Assembly (NCBI GenBank): GCA_965287045.1
Contig: OZ336877.1
Location: 112,158,001-112,222,000, forward strand
Source: Carcharhinus amblyrhynchos
Taxonomy: Eukaryota
Reading direction: 5' to 3'
DNA: 64,000 nucleotides
The position numbers were made by a program, and so were the translations under genes. Positions 9,663 through 57,430 of this stretch are shown piece after piece (within the stretch, counting starts at the first letter, position 1; each line of letters opens with the position of its first letter). Below the pieces are notes generated by a model. It saw nothing but the letters and a program-made list of their open reading frames with translations. It had not been told where the DNA came from and made no database searches.

Positions 9663-9732
<70 letters not shown>
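9663..9732. repeat. (TG)35 microsatellite
   Basis: Perfect TG dinucleotide run of 70 nt. Confidence 0.98.
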
Positions 9733-9735
<3 letters not shown>

Positions 9736-10154
9736 TCTTCATTTGCTCTCTTCGCCATTATAAATTTGATGTTTTTGGCCTGTGATTGAGATTCTGTGAA
9801 AAATGCAATTCCATTTGACCACTGGCATCTTCTTGCACAGCCCCACTTTTAACCAATGAGAAACCTGACAGGAAATGAACTGGATTACTCCCATTTCCTG
9901 TAGCAATTGCACAGGCCAAGGATAATGCCAAGCAGATTTGCTGTTTATGTTAAGGTAGAACATTGGAGTTAGGGATCAGGGCAATTGAACAGGTCAGGGG
10001 AAAATACTTGAAAAAAAAACTGAGGACAGAGCAGTCAGCAAGAAATCCAGAAAGGAAATTGAACGCTTGCAATAAAGCAAGAAATGCTTGCTAGTGAGTA
10101 ATTCCATGACAATGGGTGATATTTGGACTGAGATTAGGGAGTAGGAAGTTCTAA

Positions 10155-10463
10155 GGACAGCACAGTGGTTATCACTGCTGCCTCACAGCGCCAGGGACCT
10201 GGGTTCGATTCCCAGCTTGGGTCACTGTCTGTGTGCAGTTTGCATGTTCTTTGTCTGACTGCGTGGGTTTCCTTTGGGTGCTCTGAATTCGTCCAAAAGT
10301 CCAAAGATGTCCAGGTTAGGTGGACTGGCCATGCTAAATTGCCCCTTAGTGTCAGGGGATGAGATGGGGTAAATGGGGTTATGGGGATAGGACCTGGGTG
10401 GGATTGTGGTCAGAACAGACTAGATGGGCTGAATAGCCGCCTTCTACACTGTACGATTCTATA
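10155..10463 (+). mobile_element. Full-length HE1-like V-SINE with CR1-type tail
   Basis: A-box-like cagtggttatcact, B-box gggttcgattccc, V-domain, and tail gatgggctgaatagccgccttctacactgtacgattctat. Confidence 0.92.
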
Positions 10464-10718
10464 ATGCAGCTAATGACATATCTGAAATTTTTGCCCTTCG
10501 TGAAAAGCAAATGTCTGGTACCTGTTAGGAAGAAAAACAAATTATTTTGGTGCCAACTAGAAGTTCAGACATGGCCCTACAGATGTAAAAACACCGCATT
10601 GAGTAGGATGATGTATGGTCAGTTCAATACGGAAAATTCCAGAACTAACACAAACATGATCATTACATTGCTGATCTACTAAAGCTTCAGAACATACAGA
10701 AAAGACATTGCACCTCAC

Positions 10719-10877
10719 CCATCGTGAAGGGTCGCTGATCAGGTTAATGAAGAGTGAAGAAAGTTTTGTTCTCCGAACTTCCTGAGAGGTTGCACAAGAA
10801 ATGCCCATAAAGCATTCGGCACATGCTTTCCGCACTCCCCACACATTATCAGAGCAGAGCTGGAAGAACCTGGGTAA
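10719..10877 (-). CDS. PPP4R1: PPP4R1 coding exon 9 (159 nt)
   Basis: gtgcag|TTA CCC AGG...TGG|gtgagg; LPRFFQLCSDNVWGVRKACAECFMGISCATSQEVRRTKLSSLFINLISDPSRW (HEAT repeats). Confidence 0.97.
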
Positions 10878-11774
10878 CTGCACAGAAAAATCCAAGGGAA
10901 TGGGGTTTTCAGTTATGATTGACATTTCACTTCAGAGGGGAGGTTTTTTTGAACATCACCGTCACCGCATTTAAAGATGGTCATTACAGATGTTGGGTTA
11001 TAGCTGCATGAAAGCAAACATTTCAAACTTTCGTTTTTGGGCCTTGGCAACAAACATTCAGGAGCATCATACATTAATTCAAAATAAACTTAATCAATTT
11101 CTAATTTTATTCAAGGGATCAGTAAAATTTTGATAATTTGTTCTTGCATTTGCAAAAAAAATTGCTCCACGACACTTGGTTAAATAGGTATTAGAACAAA
11201 AGCAGGGATGTTCTCAACAGTCCCAATATTGAACATTAATTTCAATGCAATGTGCCTGAGGGAATTTGTTCTCAAAATCTAAAATGAAAAAAAAAACACT
11301 GACTAACTTATTTGAGACATACATGGAATATAGTTCAAATTCTATTTTATCACATTTCAATTGTGGTCAGTTCAAAATTCCATTTAATTTTAAGGCCCAC
11401 TCCCCAAGAGCTGGAAGCAACTAGTAAAAAGCAAAACATGAATTCCACTGATAATTGAGTAAATGCATTGCCTAGTGTGTTACTGAGCTTTATACATTAA
11501 AGTTATTCATGACTCAAATTCTGGTTTGTCCTTACTCATCTGATTCAGTATTACAATTGATCTCTGTGTCTCTATAATTGAGAAGGGTTCCTGCACAGAT
11601 TTCTATCCACTGTCCCCACAAAGTGAATGCTTTTGAGCAAGGATCAGATTTAATCCCCCCACCCCATCATCATGCATGGTCAAATATCCTGCTGACACTC
11701 ACTGTCAAGGTTCATACATTAATAGTGGTTCATTGTGAATTACCCGAAAGCTGCCGGCACCTGTCGAACCTTAC

Positions 11775-11786
11775 CTCAGGATAAGC
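11775..11786 (-). CDS. PPP4R1: Candidate alternative 12-nt microexon of PPP4R1 (Ala-Tyr-Pro-Glu) in intron 8
   Basis: ~55-nt AG-free pyrimidine tract, then gaag|GCT TAT CCT GAG|gtaagg; in frame in a phase-0 intron. No transcript evidence available. Confidence 0.5.
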
Positions 11787-12289
11787 CTTCGAAGGAAACA
11801 GAGGAAAAGAAGGAAATAGGAGACAAATAATAGGAAAAAAAAACCACTCAAACCGATTCAGTTCTACTTTTTAAAAAAAAGCTTCATTGTCAACGAACAA
11901 AGACGTTCTCAAGAATTACAAAGGAATCATGCACTCATCATGAGTGTAACATGAGGTTTTGATGTGGTTTCACAAAATTATTTCAACACCAGGCTGTTCG
12001 ACAATGAAGTGTTGAAGTGAATGTGATTCCAGAAAACAAAATAATTAAATGCACACAAACACAAGCTCACTTTTGCTATCAACCAAGGTTTGACCTCATT
12101 ATTCATGGGGGAAAGATTGACTTGACAAATTTGGCAAGATTATTAATCGTATTACTTATTCAGAACAATGTCACGGTAACATAAATGATTAAAACATTTA
12201 ATTTGGATTTTTTTCCTTTCTTTGCCGTCCTTGATAGCTAAAGGCTAATATTTAGTATGAAGCGCTGATCACTATTTGTGTATACCTAC

Positions 12290-12355
12290 CAACAATCCTT
12301 CAGTGGCCTCACGACCAACGACACCGGATATATCTCCAATATTGGCAGCACACAC
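12290..12355 (-). CDS. PPP4R1: PPP4R1 coding exon 8 (66 nt)
   Basis: ttcag|GTG TGT GCT...TTG TTG|gtaggt; VCAANIGDISGVVGREATEGLL. Preceded by a 99-nt intron. Confidence 0.95.
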
Positions 12356-12454
12356 CTGAAAGAAAAAGATCATGTCTCTTACAAATTAAATAAAACACCA
12401 AAAAAAAGGAGGTATGAAGTGAGAAATCGCCAAGTGATAGTTATGTAAACTAAC

Positions 12455-12562
12455 CTTGCGAACATGGAACATTCGACAATCACAGCACATCTCACAGAAC
12501 CGGTGCAGTATATATTTCTCTGTGATAGCCTTTCCCACCATGGGAGCCATTTTACACATTAT
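12455..12562 (-). CDS. PPP4R1: PPP4R1 coding exon 7 (108 nt)
   Basis: tatag|ATA ATG TGT...AAG|gttagt; IMCKMAPMVGKAITEKYILHRFCEMCCDCRMFHVRK. Confidence 0.96.
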
Positions 12563-30344: not shown

Positions 30345-30480
30345 CTGTTAAACGTGTTCTCACTAGCAATGTACTTATCCAGTCGACCCAACGGTGTTAG
30401 CATCTCGTCTTGAGAAACAAAATCCAAGGCTGAAGGTATAATAAGGACATCAGACTCTGAGCTGTAGTCATCCACACCAA
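30345..30480 (-). CDS. PPP4R1: PPP4R1 coding exon 3 (136 nt)
   Basis: ctgccag|...AG|gtatga; encodes (F)GVDDYSSESDVLIIPSALDFVSQDEMLTPLGRLDKYIASENTFN(R), nearly identical to PPP4R1. Confidence 0.97.
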
Positions 30481-47284: not shown

Positions 47285-49863
47285 ACATAGAACATAGAAC
47301 ACTACAGCACAAACAGGCCCTTCGGCCCACGAGTTGCGCCGATCACATCAACACCTACCAACCTACAGACCTATCTATAACCCTCAATCTCATTAAACCC
47401 CATATACTCATCCAGAAGTCTTTAAAAAGACCCCAGCGAGTTCGCCTCCACCACCACTGACGGCAGCCGATTCCATTCACTCACCACCCTCTGAGTGAAA
47501 AACTTACCCCTAACATCACTTCTGAACTTCCCTCCCTTCACCTTAAATCTGTGTCCTCTCGTAGCAACCATTTCAACCCGGGGAAATAGCCTCTGAGAGT
47601 CCACCCTATCTATTCCTCTCAACATTTTGTAAACTTCTATCAGGTCGCCTCTCAACCTTCGTCTCTCCAGGGAAAAGAGTCCCAGCTCCCTCAACCTAAC
47701 TTCATAAGGCATGCCTCCCAGTCCAGGCAACATCCTTGTAAATCTCCTCTGTACCCTCTCAATAGCTTCTACTCTTTCCTATAGTGAGGCGACCAGAACT
47801 GCGCACAATACTCTAAATGAGGCCTGACAAGGGTCTTATAAAGTTGCAGCATTACCTCCCGACTCCTAAACTCAATCCCTCGATTAATGAAGGCCAGTAC
47901 ACCATACGCCTTCTTGACCACCTCCTCCACCTGCGAGGCCGATTTAAGAGTCCTGTGGACCCGGACCCCAAGATCCTTCTGCTCTTCAACACTAGTCAGA
48001 CTTCTGCCCTTGATAGTGTACTCGTTCATCCCGTTGGTTCTGCCAAAATGGACGACTACACATTTATCTGCGTTGAAGTCCATCTGCCACTTCTCCGCCC
48101 AGTCCTGCATCCTATCTATGTCCTGCTGCAACTTTTGCCATCCTTCCAGACCATCCACAACACCACCGACCTTAGTGTCATCAGCGAACTTACTTACCCA
48201 TCCCTCCACTTCCTCATCCAGGTCATTTATGAAAATGACAAACAACAAGGGTCCCAGAACAGATCCTTGAGGCACTCCGCTGGTGACTGACCTCCATTCA
48301 GAAAAAGTCCCATCCACAACCACTCTCTGCCTTCTGCAGGCAAGCCAGTTCTGAATCCACAAGGCCAAAGGCCCTTGGATCCCATGCCCTCTCACCTTCT
48401 CAAGAAGTCTTGCATGGGGGACCTTATCAAACGCCTTGCTGAAGTCCATGTACACTACGTCCACGGCACTTCCTTCGTCAATGTGTTCAGTCACATTATC
48501 GAAGAACTCAACTAGGCTTGTAAGGCACAACCTGCCCTTGACAAATCCATGCTGACTATTCCTGATCATGTCAAACCTCTCCAAATGTTCGTAAATCTTG
48601 TCCCTCAGAAGCCTCTCCATCAGCTTACCAACCACTGAGGTCAGACTCACCGGTCGGTAATTTCCCGGGCTATCTCTGTTCCCTTTCTTGAAAATAGGAA
48701 CTACATCCGCAATCCTCCAATCCTCCGGAACCTCTCCCGTCTCCACTGACGATGCAAAGATCATCGCCAGGGGCTCTGCAATCTCTTCCCTCGCCTCCCA
48801 CAGTATCCTGGGGTACATCCCATCTGGTCCAGGCGACTTATCTACCTTGATAGAATTCAAAAGTTCCAACACATCCTCCTCCTTAATATTCACGTACTCA
48901 ATCTTTTCCATCTGCTGCAAATCCATAACAAAATCTCCCAGATCGGCTTCCACCGTGAATACTGAGGCGAAGTACTCGTTAAGCACCTCTGCCATTTCTT
49001 CTGGTTCCACACAAACCTTTCCCCCCTCACCTTTTATAGGTCCTATCCCTTCTCTTCTTATCCTTTTACCTTTCACATATTTATAGAAGGCCTTGGAATT
49101 CTCCTTAATCTTACCCACCAAGGTCTTCTCATGACCCCTTCTGGCTCTCCTAATTACCCTTTTAAGTTCCTTCCTACAGTCCTTATACTCCTCAAGATCT
49201 TTAACCTCTCCTAATTCCCTGAACCTCTTGTACACCTTCCTTTTCCTCCTGACTAGGTTCAACACAGCCTTTGTGCACCACGGTTCCCGCGACCGACCAA
49301 AACCCCCTCGTCTCATCGGAACGTTGTCATTCAGAGCTCCAGACACACATTCCTTGAATATCTGCCACCTTCCTTCGGTACTTTTCCCTAAGAACGCCTC
49401 CTTCCAGTTTATTTGTCCAAGTAACTTCCTGACTTCTTCGTATCTCCCCTTACCCCAGACAAACACCTTCCTAGCCTGCCTGATCCTATCTCGTTCCAAT
49501 GCAATTGTGAAGGAGATAGAATTATGGTCACCATTTCCAAGATGCTCTCCTACCGAAAGATCCATCACCTGCCCTGGTTCATTCGCCAGTACCAGGTCAA
49601 GTACAGCCTCTCCCCTCGTAGGCTTATCCACATACTGTGTCAGGAAACCTTCCTGAACACACCTAACAAACTCCTCCCCATCCAAACCCCTTACCCTAGG
49701 GATATTCCAGTCGATGTTTGGGAAATTGAAGTCTCCCATCACGACAACTCTGTTATTAAAACATCTCTCCAGAATCTGTTTCCCTATTTGCACTTCAACT
49801 TCCCTGTCACTATTGGGCGGCCTATAGAATACACCCAGCAAAGTTTTTGACTCTTTGCTGTTT
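47285..49863 (-). mobile_element. Young 5'-truncated CR1 (~2.58 kb), ORF2 with one frameshift near 47775
   Basis: NSKESKTLLGVFYRPP...MGDFNFP...GDHN...[13 protein letters not shown]...FADDTK; (TTCTATG)n tail; 7-bp TSD GAATAGA at 47278-47284 and 49864-49870. Confidence 0.96.
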
Positions 49864-50046
49864 GAATAGAGATGGTTTACTGCAAATTTTATTGGCTGCT
49901 GATGAGGCCACAGTATTGTATGCAGCTTTGGTTTCCTTTTCTGAGGAAGCATGTCCTTCTATAGAAGGAGTGCAGCAAAGGTTTACCAGGCTGGTTTCAG
50001 GGATGATTGGTTTAACACAGAAAACAAGGATGCTCATGTAATGCAT

Positions 50047-54849: not shown

Positions 54850-57430
54850 AAATAGGAGAGGAGAGGTCACCCTGTTGGGAGTCTTTTATAGACCTCCTAA
54901 AAGTTCTAGAGAGGTTGAGGAAAGGATTGCGGAGACAATCCTGGTTAGGAGTGAAAGTAATAGGGTAATTGTTATGGGGGACTTTAACTTTACGAATATT
55001 GATTGGAGTTGCTATAGTTCTAGCTCGCTAGAGGGGTCAGTGTTTGTACAAAGCGTGCAGGAAGGTTTTTTGTCTCAGTATGTAGACAGGCCAACTAGAG
55101 GTGAGGCTATATTGGATTTGGTGCTGGGAAATGAGCCAGACCAGGTGCTAGACTTGGAAGTTGGTGTGCATTTTGGTGATAGTGACCACAATTCGGTTAC
55201 GTTCACCTTAGTGATGGGAAGAGATAGGCGTGAACCTCGGGTCAGCAATTTTAGCTGGGGTAAGGGCGATTATGAGGCTATCAGGAGTGAATTAGGAAGC
55301 ATGGATTGGATTAGGGGATTACAGGGACTGGGAACATCTGAAATGTGGAATTTTTTCAAGGAGCAGCTACTGCGAGTCCTTGATAGGTATGTCCCTGTCA
55401 GGCATGGTGGATTTGGTAGATCTAGGGAACCGTGGTGCACTAAAAGAGTTGAGTCGATGGTTAAAAAGAAAAAGGAGGCTTATGTTCGGATGAGATTGGA
55501 GGGCTCAGATAGTGCACTAGAAAGCTTTAGATTGGCTAGGAGGGAGTTGAAGAGTGAGTTGAGAAGGGCTAAAAGAGGACATGAGAAGACTTTGGCTGAT
55601 AGGATTAAGGAGAATCCTAAGGCGTTCTATAAGTATGTCAAGAACAGAAGGTTGGTCAGGGCAAGATTAGGGCCAGTTACAGACAGCAGGGGGAAGTTGT
55701 GTGTGGAACCGGAGGAGATTGGAGAAGTATTGAACCAATATTTCTCTTCGGTGTTCACGCAGGGGGACATGAATATAGCTGAGGAGGACATTGGGTTGCA
55801 GGGGTGTAAAATAGACAGTATTACGGTTGATAAAGAGGATGTGCTGGAAATTCTTGAGGGGCTGAAAATAGATAAGTCCCCTGGTCCGGATGGGATCTAC
55901 CCTAGGATTCTCTGGGAGGCTAGAGAGGTGATTGCAGAGCCTCTGGCTCAGATCTTCAGGTCGTCATTGGTCTCTGGTGTAGTCCCGGAGGATTGGAGGA
56001 TAGCGAATGTTGTCCCATTGTTTAAGAAGGGGAACAGAGACTTTGCCGGGAATTATAGACCGGTGAGTCTTACTTCTGTTGTGGGCAAGGTCTTAGAAAA
56101 AATTATTAGGGATAGGATTTATAGTTATTTGGAGTGTAATGAATTGATTAGAAATAGTCAGCATGGTTTTGTAGCAGGTAGGTCGTGCCTTACTAACCTT
56201 ATTGAGTTTTTTGAGAAGGTGACCAAAGAGGTGGATGGGGGTAAGGCAGTTGACGTGGTATACATGGATTTTAGTAAGGCGTTCGATAAGGTTCACCATG
56301 GTAGGCTTCTGCAGAAAATGCAGATGTATGGGATTGTGGGTAATCTAGGAAGTTGGATCAGGAATTGGCTATCAGATAGGAGACAGAGGGTGGTGGTGGA
56401 TGGTAAATATTCATCATGGAGTGCAGTTACGAGTGGTGTGCCTCAGGGATCTGTTTTGGGGCCACTGTTGTTTGTAATTTTTATTAATGATCTGGATGAG
56501 GGTATAGTTGGGTGGATTAGTAAATTTGCTGATGACACCAAAGTTGGAGGTGTGGTTGATTGTGAGGAAGGGTGTCATAGTCTGCAGGGAGACTTAGATA
56601 GGTTGCAGAGCTGGGCCGAGAGGTGGCGGATGGAATTTAATGCGGAGAAGTGTGAGGTAATTCACTTTGGTAGGAGCAACAGATGTGTCGAGTATAGGGC
56701 TAACGGGAGGACTTTGAATAGTGTGGATGAACAGAGGGATCTAGGTGTGTGTGTACATAGATCCCTGAAAGTTGGGAATCAAGTAGATAAGGTTGTCAAG
56801 AAGGCGTACGGTGTCTTGGCGTTTATTGGTAGGGGGATTGAATTTAGGAGTCGCAGTGTAATGTTGCAACTGTACACTACTCTAGTGCGGCCGCACTTGG
56901 AGTACTGTGTGCAGTTCTGGTCCCCGCATTACAAGAAGGATGTGGAGGCGTTGGAGAGGGTGCAGAGGAGGTTTACTAGGATGTTGCCTGGTATGGTGGG
57001 GAGGTCCTATGAGGAGAGACTGAGGGATCTAGGGTTGTTTTCGTTGGGAAGAAGGCGGCTAAGAGGGGATCTTATTGAAACATATAAGATGATTAGAGGT
57101 TTAGATAGGGTGGATAGTGATAGCCTTTTTCCTCGGATGGAGAAAGCTAGCACGAGGGGGCATGACTTTAAATTAAGGGGGGGTAGCTACAGGACGGATG
57201 TCAGGGGTAGGTTCTTTACCCAGCGGGTGGTGAGGGATTGGAATGCCCTGCCTGCTGCAGTTGTAGATGCGTCTAGTTTGGGGGCGTTTAAGAGATCTCT
57301 GGATAGGTTTATGGACGAAAAGGGATTGGTATAGGCTAGTGGGTCATTGTTTTTGTAACTGGTCGGCGCAACATCGTGGGCCGAAGGGCCTGTTCTGCGC
57401 TGTAATGTTCTATGTTTCTATGTTCTATGT
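54850..57430 (+). mobile_element. Young 5'-truncated CR1 with uninterrupted partial ORF2 (54851-57334)
   Basis: Open frame >800 aa: partial APE endonuclease (GVFYRPP, MGDFN, SDHN), RT ([28 protein letters not shown]), C-terminal region; gggccgaagggcct stem-loop and (TCTATGT)n tail. Confidence 0.97.

What the first reader, a model, noticed from the sequence alone, without database searches (positions are those of the whole stretch)
11671..11850. Candidate undescribed 12-nt microexon (AYPE) in PPP4R1 intron 8
Seen on the minus strand: tttttttttcctattatttgtctcctatttccttcttttcctctgtttccttcgaag|GCTTATCCTGAG|gtaagg. This is a long AG-free pyrimidine tract, a 12-nt exon (11775-11786) and a strong GAG|GTAAGG donor. 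Intron 8 is phase 0, so inclusion adds Ala-Tyr-Pro-Glu between EATEGLL and LPRFFQLC without a frameshift. A TGCATG lies ~100 nt downstream (11671-11676), and the flank retains several CpGs in otherwise CpG-poor intron. Established: downstream UGCAUG is an RBFOX enhancer position, and frame-preserving microexons remodel interaction surfaces. Inference: a tissue-specific insertion into a HEAT repeat of the PP4 scaffold. The UGC motif typical of SRRM4 targets is not evident.
Basis: partly seen in the sequence, partly recalled or inferred. Interest (0 to 1): 0.72.

Follow-up and report, generated by a model that had tools for sequence, protein, structure and literature searches.

The report
Shark PPP4R1 microexon, one codon shorter
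A tiny optional exon of a shark phosphatase-scaffold gene (PPP4R1), already seen as a five-amino-acid insert in database gene models of other sharks, is present here without the usual splice signal in front of its first codon, so it is likely spliced one codon shorter: a real but fairly ordinary microexon.

Summary
It is the only such site on either strand of the window. It is a real cassette microexon of sharks. Database models from four other shark annotations (two Scyliorhinus, Mustelus, Pristiophorus) carry KAYPE or KAHPG at this junction, three beside skip isoforms: 16 of 350 assessable proteins. All 16 have five residues (15 nt) and none has four. The extra Lys codon AAG lies right before the 12 nt here, but after CG instead of AG. 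Most likely this lineage lost the outer AG of a tandem acceptor and uses the inner one (AYPE), a known NAGNAG-type boundary shift. Inclusion in this species is not shown: 4 of 4 RNA contig sets laid give only the skip joint, and contigs cannot show absence. AlphaFold places the insert mid-helix in HEAT repeat 6. Tissue specificity and RBFOX control are untested. A small chance remains of a non-AG (CG) acceptor.

The parts
12290..12355 (-). PPP4R1 exon 8 (66 nt, ends EATEGLL, phase 0)
10878..12289 (-). intron 8, 1412 nt, GT..AG; removed whole in the skip isoform
   Evidence: joint in 4 of 4 runs
11928..11933 (-). upstream TGCATG, 141 nt before the acceptor (RBFOX-type motif, recalled; function untested)
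11792..11844 (-). polypyrimidine tract, 53 nt, 89% C/T, inside a 58-nt AG-free zone
11790..11791 (-). CG where the outer acceptor AG of the 15-nt exon would be expected
   Evidence: 15-nt length inferred
11787..11789 (-). AAG: the Lys codon of the exon in other sharks; here likely the inner acceptor
11775..11786 (-). microexon core, 12 nt, Ala-Tyr-Pro-Glu
   Evidence: same peptide in Mustelus and Scyliorhinus models
11769..11774 (-). 5' splice site GAG|GTAAGG
11663..11725 (-). dispersed repeat-like stretch, 78-93% alike to four other genome places; overlaps the downstream TGCATG
11671..11676 (-). downstream TGCATG, 99 nt after the donor (function untested)
10719..10877 (-). PPP4R1 exon 9 (159 nt, starts LPRFFQLC)

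Best explanation
This is the homologue of a cassette microexon that other sharks' gene models carry in PPP4R1 intron 8 as 15 nt (KAYPE/KAHPG), and in this genome, where CG stands before the Lys codon, it is likely spliced at the next AG as 12 nt (AYPE), which would break an outer helix of a HEAT repeat. SHOWN: the splice signals, the frame, identity of the peptide with the database inserts, paired inclusion and skip models in three annotations, and the skip joint in close relatives. INFERRED: the ancestral acceptor was a tandem YAG-AAG read at the outer AG; one substitution or a 1-nt deletion removed that AG after the split from the Mustelus line; scanning from a distant branch point now meets the inner AG first. 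INFERRED: skipping is the default and inclusion is limited to some tissues or low levels, helped by the strong tract and donor rather than by an SRRM3/4 UGC element. PREDICTED: the insert splits helix A of the sixth N-terminal HEAT repeat at the conserved Leu-Pro kink. It likely acts as a Pro-containing spacer that bends the solenoid, not as a sequence-specific binding motif.
For: 16 of 350 assessable homologues carry a 5-residue insert at this junction: 12 Scyliorhinus and 1 Mustelus (KAYPE), 3 Pristiophorus (KAHPG). The pairs P0298/P0274, P0285/P0296 and P0128/P0031 differ by this one indel. The window reads AAG GCT TAT CCT GAG = KAYPE then GTAAGG, once in the genome. The window is nearest Mustelus (92% in the variable exon 11, against 81-82% Scyliorhinus and 71% Pristiophorus), so its nearest relative and both outgroups have 15 nt. 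No model has a 4-residue form, as expected if relatives have a canonical outer AG; PMC3250501 reports a proximal preference and 18.5-fold enrichment of exon gain/loss at 3' splice sites. No separate AG-AAG-GT exon exists in the intron. AlphaFold: skip form, one helix 246-261 at pLDDT 95-96; inclusion form, helices 246-255 and 258-265. Pro is kept in both peptide versions while 2 of 5 residues differ, although 22 of the 25 columns L253-M277 are 100% conserved in 65 skip-form rows.
Against: No read or contig shows inclusion in this species. 4 of 4 RNA contig sets laid (4 of 17 RNA? runs listed; kind guessed, tissue unknown) hold only the skip joint and no letters between. No protein anywhere has AYPE without K (0 of 350). 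No genomic DNA of a related shark was compared, so the AG in relatives is inferred. AAG is a less favoured acceptor than CAG/TAG (PMC3250501 passages). Models from Carcharodon, Cetorhinus, Heterodontus, Heptranchias, Stegostoma, Chiloscyllium, Hemiscyllium, eight batoid genera and Callorhinchus lack the insert, so the distribution is patchy. The database models are automatic predictions whose read support I could not see. The lower pLDDT around the insert (58-67) partly reflects 4 of 69 alignment rows holding it.
Confidence: 0.6

Rival explanations
1. Silent remnant: the exon is real in other sharks, but loss of the outer AG has switched it off in this lineage, and it has not yet decayed.
For: Only skip joints in 4 of 4 runs whose exons are 99% or more alike to the window; no 4-residue isoform in 350 proteins; many shark models lack the insert.
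Against: The tract, donor and all five codons are intact and the site is the best of its kind in 128 kb of strand; an in-frame AG remains; contigs drop rarer isoforms.
Confidence: 0.18
2. The CG is an allele or assembly error; the species normally has AG and splices the ordinary 15-nt KAYPE exon.
For: All 16 annotated inserts are 5 residues, including the nearest relative; PMC2374985 found that 6 of 20 apparent non-AG tandems were SNP alleles absent from the reference.
Against: A chromosome-scale assembly should have few base errors (general knowledge); no second haplotype copy was found.
Confidence: 0.1
3. Non-AG acceptor: the exon is 15 nt here too, spliced after CG in a TCG,AAG tandem, like the TG tandems of CNBP (TTG,AAG) and CACNA1A (TTG,GAG), and relatives may share CG or TG.
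For: The layout matches CNBP intron 3; such sites always sit beside a weak AG, and reached 85% use in CACNA1A brain; a CG acceptor in Drosophila per is cited (PMC2374985). The K codon is kept intact here, and CpGs cluster at the site.
Against: Only 36 human introns had such sites and all validated ones were TG. Four annotations would have had to pick a non-consensus intron with no AG-derived AYPE model among those listed. A survey of non-canonical sites has no 'GT-CG' in its main text (PMC4176328).
Confidence: 0.07
4. Chance splice-like sequence or splicing noise with no function, picked up by automatic annotation; or a recursive AG|GT site.
For: Patchy annotation; skip form only in the runs laid; 2 of 5 residues differ in sawshark.
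Against: The same in-frame peptide at the same junction in squalomorph and galeomorph sharks; 0-3 of 2000 shuffles. Recursive sites leave no peptide and occur in very long introns (recalled), while this intron is 1.4 kb.
Confidence: 0.05

Closest known systems
RefSeq/UniRef PPP4R1 isoforms of sharks: XP_038664605.1 (Scyliorhinus canicula X1), XP_072324466.1 (second Scyliorhinus assembly, X1), XP_078073099.1 (Mustelus asterias), UniRef100_UPI00398E8DBE (Pristiophorus X1)
   Same: Same gene, same exon 8/9 junction, same AYPE core (AHPG in sawshark); skip isoforms sit beside them in three of the four.
   Different: They are 15 nt with a leading Lys; here the Lys codon has no AG before it.
NAGNAG-driven exon boundary shifts (Bradley et al. 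2012, PMC3250501)
   Same: A one-codon difference between orthologous exons at the 3' splice site, with a NAG as first codon of the longer form.
   Different: Described for ordinary exons of mammals and flies; here it would remove a fifth of a microexon. The outer AG in relatives was not seen.
SRRM3/4-dependent neural microexons (bioRxiv 10.1101/2024.09.17.613571)
   Same: Short, in frame, strong pyrimidine tract, weak AG context.
   Different: No UGC within 93 nt upstream (present in 74-79% of those); the tract runs right up to the acceptor; the insert was found only in sharks among the proteins held; tissue unknown.
TG-AG tandem 3' splice sites (Szafranski et al. 2007, PMC2374985; CNBP, CACNA1A, GNAS)
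   Same: NYG followed by a weak AAG acceptor 3 nt downstream.
   Different: The dinucleotide here is CG, not TG, and its use is not shown.
PP2A scaffold PR65/A HEAT solenoid (PDB 1b3u and others)
   Same: Nearest solved structures by sequence (E about 1e-21); same Leu-Pro kink in helix A (recalled).
   Different: No solved PP4R1 chain came up among the 20 matches; the matches are mainly to the C-terminal repeats.

Membership tests
Cassette microexon | 3-27 nt with AG and GT ends | tested here: met
   12 nt, ag|...|gtaagg
Cassette microexon | keeps the reading frame, no stop | tested here: met
   phase-0 intron, 4 codons
Cassette microexon | inclusion and skip isoforms both exist in the lineage | tested here: met
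   paired database models in three shark annotations; skip joint in RNA contigs
Cassette microexon | included in transcripts of this species | tested here: inconclusive
   4 of 4 contig sets show skip only; contigs drop rare forms; species and tissue unknown
SRRM3/4 neural microexon | UGC between branch point and AG | tested here: not met
   nearest TGC is 147 nt upstream; the motif is common but not strictly needed
SRRM3/4 neural microexon | neural-specific inclusion, lost without SRRM3/4 | not testable with these tools
   no tissue-labelled raw reads were listed
SRRM3/4 neural microexon | conserved across jawed vertebrates | tested here: inconclusive
   no such insert in any non-shark protein held, but only the best 120 hits per search and 15 members per cluster were seen, and no placental mammal was among the named rows
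RBFOX-enhanced exon | downstream UGCAUG | tested here: met
   11676-11671; but also one upstream at 11933-11928, and 16 in 38 kb of the gene's sense strand
RBFOX-enhanced exon | motif conserved and needed for inclusion | not tested
   no related genomic DNA compared; the motif lies in a dispersed repeat-like stretch
NAGNAG boundary shift | orthologues differ by one NAG codon at the acceptor | tested here: met
   AAG (Lys) is exonic in 16 of 16 inserts and has no AG before it here
NAGNAG boundary shift | outer AG present in relatives' genomes | not tested
   no shark genomic DNA was obtained; the one metagenome match was unrelated
Non-AG (TG/CG) tandem acceptor | canonical AG within 28 nt | tested here: met
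   AG 3 nt downstream (rule)
Non-AG (TG/CG) tandem acceptor | junction reads at the non-AG site with genomic DNA verified | not testable with these tools
   no inclusion reads available

The most novel reading that the evidence does not exclude
Sharks splice a conserved 15-nt PPP4R1 microexon at a non-AG acceptor (CG here), preferring it to the AG three bases downstream: a vertebrate GT-CG intron end kept from sawsharks to ground sharks, which sets a helix-breaking insert in the PP4 scaffold.
Probability: 0.07. Interest if true: 0.7.

Novelty: new member of a known kind. Interest (0 to 1): 0.33.

Why it matters
If the best reading holds, it is a clean natural case of a microexon that arose or survived only in sharks and then changed length by one codon through an acceptor shift. 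It also lands in the middle of a near-invariant HEAT helix instead of a loop, which makes it a small testable handle on how PP4R1-PP4c is tuned. That is of modest, specialist interest, since the exon is already in database models. If the CG were used as acceptor, it would be a rare vertebrate exception to the AG rule and of real interest to splicing biochemists.

Tried and rejected
No run on record as RNA was listed as a holder; 17 were guessed RNA, all kept as contigs. A degenerate splice-site motif scan of metagenome contigs gave 1 match, with no similarity to the window beyond the motif itself and no PPP4R1 coding match: chance. The paralogue on contig C16 (85% in exon 9) has an intron 8 of about 0.7 kb with no microexon candidate under a relaxed scan and no similarity to this intron. 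A separate 3-nt AAG exon as source of the Lys was rejected: no AG-AAG-GT in intron 8. Rfam gave 0 matches at E up to 1. The region folds worse than all 200 shuffles (z +2.4), so there is no structural element. Exonised repeat: the exon and acceptor had no other match in the genome, only the stretch 50-110 nt downstream did. The 11-residue insert of 7 sea-turtle models and the 25-residue insert of 2 falcon models at the same junction are unrelated in sequence and were not counted as support. 13 of 363 proteins held could not be assessed (fragments, or lacking an anchor). Earlier findings of the scan: nothing by sequence or place; one unrelated MPP7 note by words. No complex was folded.

Full report
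Observation. On the minus strand a pyrimidine tract (11844-11792, 89% C/T) leads to cgaag, then 12 nt (11786-11775, Ala-Tyr-Pro-Glu), then gtaagg. Exons 2-10 were placed by tblastn and by their AG/GT ends. Exon 8 (12355-12290) ends at codon 253, so the 1412-nt intron is number 8 and phase 0. With rules chosen after seeing the site (AG-free for 40 nt, at least 70% pyrimidine, 3-30 nt, AG|GTRAG), this is the only hit on both strands of the window. 3, 0 and 0 of 2000 shuffles of the intron give a hit at 70, 80 and 85%. Its tract is stronger than that of each of the 10 constitutive acceptors scored.

What it is. Three protein searches (best 120 of 573, best 120 of 504, all 22) and three cluster look-ups (at most 15 members per cluster) left 363 proteins in hand; 350 could be read across the exon 8/9 junction. 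Of these, 325 have no insert, 16 have five residues, and 9 have unrelated longer inserts (7 sea turtle, 2 falcon). The 16 are: 8 of 9 listed models of Scyliorhinus canicula; 4 of 5 of a second Scyliorhinus RefSeq assembly (name cut off; probably S. torazame, my inference); the one readable Mustelus asterias model (all KAYPE); and 3 of 4 Pristiophorus models (KAHPG). In three of these annotations, isoform X1 and X2 differ by this indel alone, so it is a cassette exon. The window holds AAG GCT TAT CCT GAG, which is KAYPE, once in the genome. KAHPG is two single-base changes away. The element is therefore homologous and at least as old as the split of squalomorph and galeomorph sharks. The window is nearest Mustelus (92% in the variable exon 11; Scyliorhinus 81-82%, Pristiophorus 71%).

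The 12 versus 15 problem. No protein has the four-residue form. No separate 3-nt exon could supply it. Since the nearest relative and both outgroups have 15 nt, the long form is ancestral by parsimony. The simplest history is a YAG-AAG tandem acceptor read at the outer AG, which this lineage lost. PMC3250501 (passages and section 12 read) shows that outer sites are preferred and that such one-codon boundary shifts are common. I did not see any relative's genomic DNA, so this step is inferred. The alternative is a non-AG acceptor. PMC2374985 (parts 1-3 of 6 read) lists 36 human introns with TG acceptors, including CNBP TTG,AAG and CACNA1A TTG,GAG with 85% use in brain, and cites a CG acceptor in Drosophila per. 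The layout fits, but such sites are very rare, and four annotations with no AG-derived form listed argue against it. PMC4176328 (passages only) has no 'GT-CG' in its main text.

Expression. Of 17 runs guessed to be RNA, four from four organisms were laid on 10600-12500. All four join 12290 to 10877 directly, with exons 99% or more alike and no letters between. This shows that the skip form exists in close relatives. Contigs drop rarer forms and the tissues are unknown, so it does not show that the exon is unused. Models of Carcharodon, Cetorhinus, Heterodontus, Heptranchias, Stegostoma, Chiloscyllium, Hemiscyllium, eight batoid genera, Callorhinchus and all bony vertebrates held lack the insert. 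That pattern fits restricted inclusion, repeated loss, or both. No placental mammal was among the named rows, so I cannot say that human lacks it. The paralogue on contig C16 has no such exon in its intron 8.

Regulation. There is no UGC within 93 nt upstream. In bioRxiv 10.1101/2024.09.17.613571 (passages), 74-79% of SRRM3/4 microexons have one, though it is not strictly needed. TGCATG occurs 99 nt downstream and also 141 nt upstream; by recalled RBFOX position rules these would act in opposite ways. The gene's sense strand has 16 in 38 kb. The downstream copy lies at the end of a stretch with four look-alikes elsewhere in the genome. RBFOX control is thus a lead only. The long CU-rich tract would also suit PTBP1 repression (recalled, untested).

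Protein. AlphaFold models of the catshark pair put the junction in helix A of the sixth N-terminal HEAT repeat, counting helix pairs. The skip form has one helix, 246-261, at pLDDT 95-96. With KAYPE it splits into 246-255 and 258-265, with block pLDDT 67 and 58; few alignment rows (4 of 69) hold the insert, so the drop is weak evidence. 22 of the 25 columns L253-M277 are invariant in 65 skip-form homologues, while the insert varies at 2 of 5 positions and likely loses its Lys here, keeping Ala and Pro. I read it as a helix-breaking spacer. PP4R1 is a regulatory subunit that binds PP4c (bioRxiv 10.1101/2021.11.07.467570, passages). The nearest solved structures are PP2A A subunits. Any effect on binding is untested.

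Known or new. Paper searches: PPP4R1 + microexon, 0 papers; the junction peptides, 0; PPP4R1 + alternative splicing + exon, 14 listed, none on this exon by title or abstract start; microexon + shark, 16 of 18 listed, same; PPP4R1 with shark terms, none of the 10 listed of 2,139 holds ppp4r1. Supplementary microexon tables of these papers were not seen and might list it. The exon is in RefSeq/UniRef models but apparently not in print; the 12-nt form is in neither. Verdict: a real microexon, a new member of a known kind. Interest 0.33; best reading 0.6; non-AG acceptor 0.07.

Noticed in passing
window 11663-11725 (-); L002-L005: A 40-65 nt stretch just downstream of the microexon is 78-93% alike to four places on other contigs, which also resemble each other: probably the remnant of an old low-copy repeat. 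It has no Rfam match.
   Followed up: partly
window 30345-30480 (-), exon 3: Shark isoforms often lack a 17-residue piece at the start of exon 3 (S. canicula, the second Scyliorhinus, Pristiophorus, Heptranchias and one orectolobiform set). This fits an alternative acceptor 51 nt into the exon; the same event in human is recalled, not checked.
   Followed up: no
G000 contig C16, L009/L010: A PPP4R1 paralogue (85% in exon 9) with the same exon layout; its transcripts also show up in the RNA contigs. No microexon in its intron 8.
   Followed up: yes
window 12126-12290: Run X1 has a 165-nt contig at depth 2.2 covering the 5' part of intron 8: unspliced RNA or DNA.
   Followed up: no
proteins P0006-P0012: Seven sea-turtle models have an 11-residue insert at the same junction that starts with Val (a GT codon), which looks like read-through of the exon 8 donor.
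   Followed up: no
window 54851-57331 (+) and 47772-49958 (-): Long open frames (827 and 729 residues stop to stop) that resemble LINE endonuclease/reverse-transcriptase ORFs (resemblance recalled, no family scan); many shorter pieces of the same kind fill the introns.
   Followed up: no
window about 9663-9731: A long (GT)n microsatellite in intron 9, and a SINE-like stretch near 10137-10409 (label recalled).
   Followed up: no
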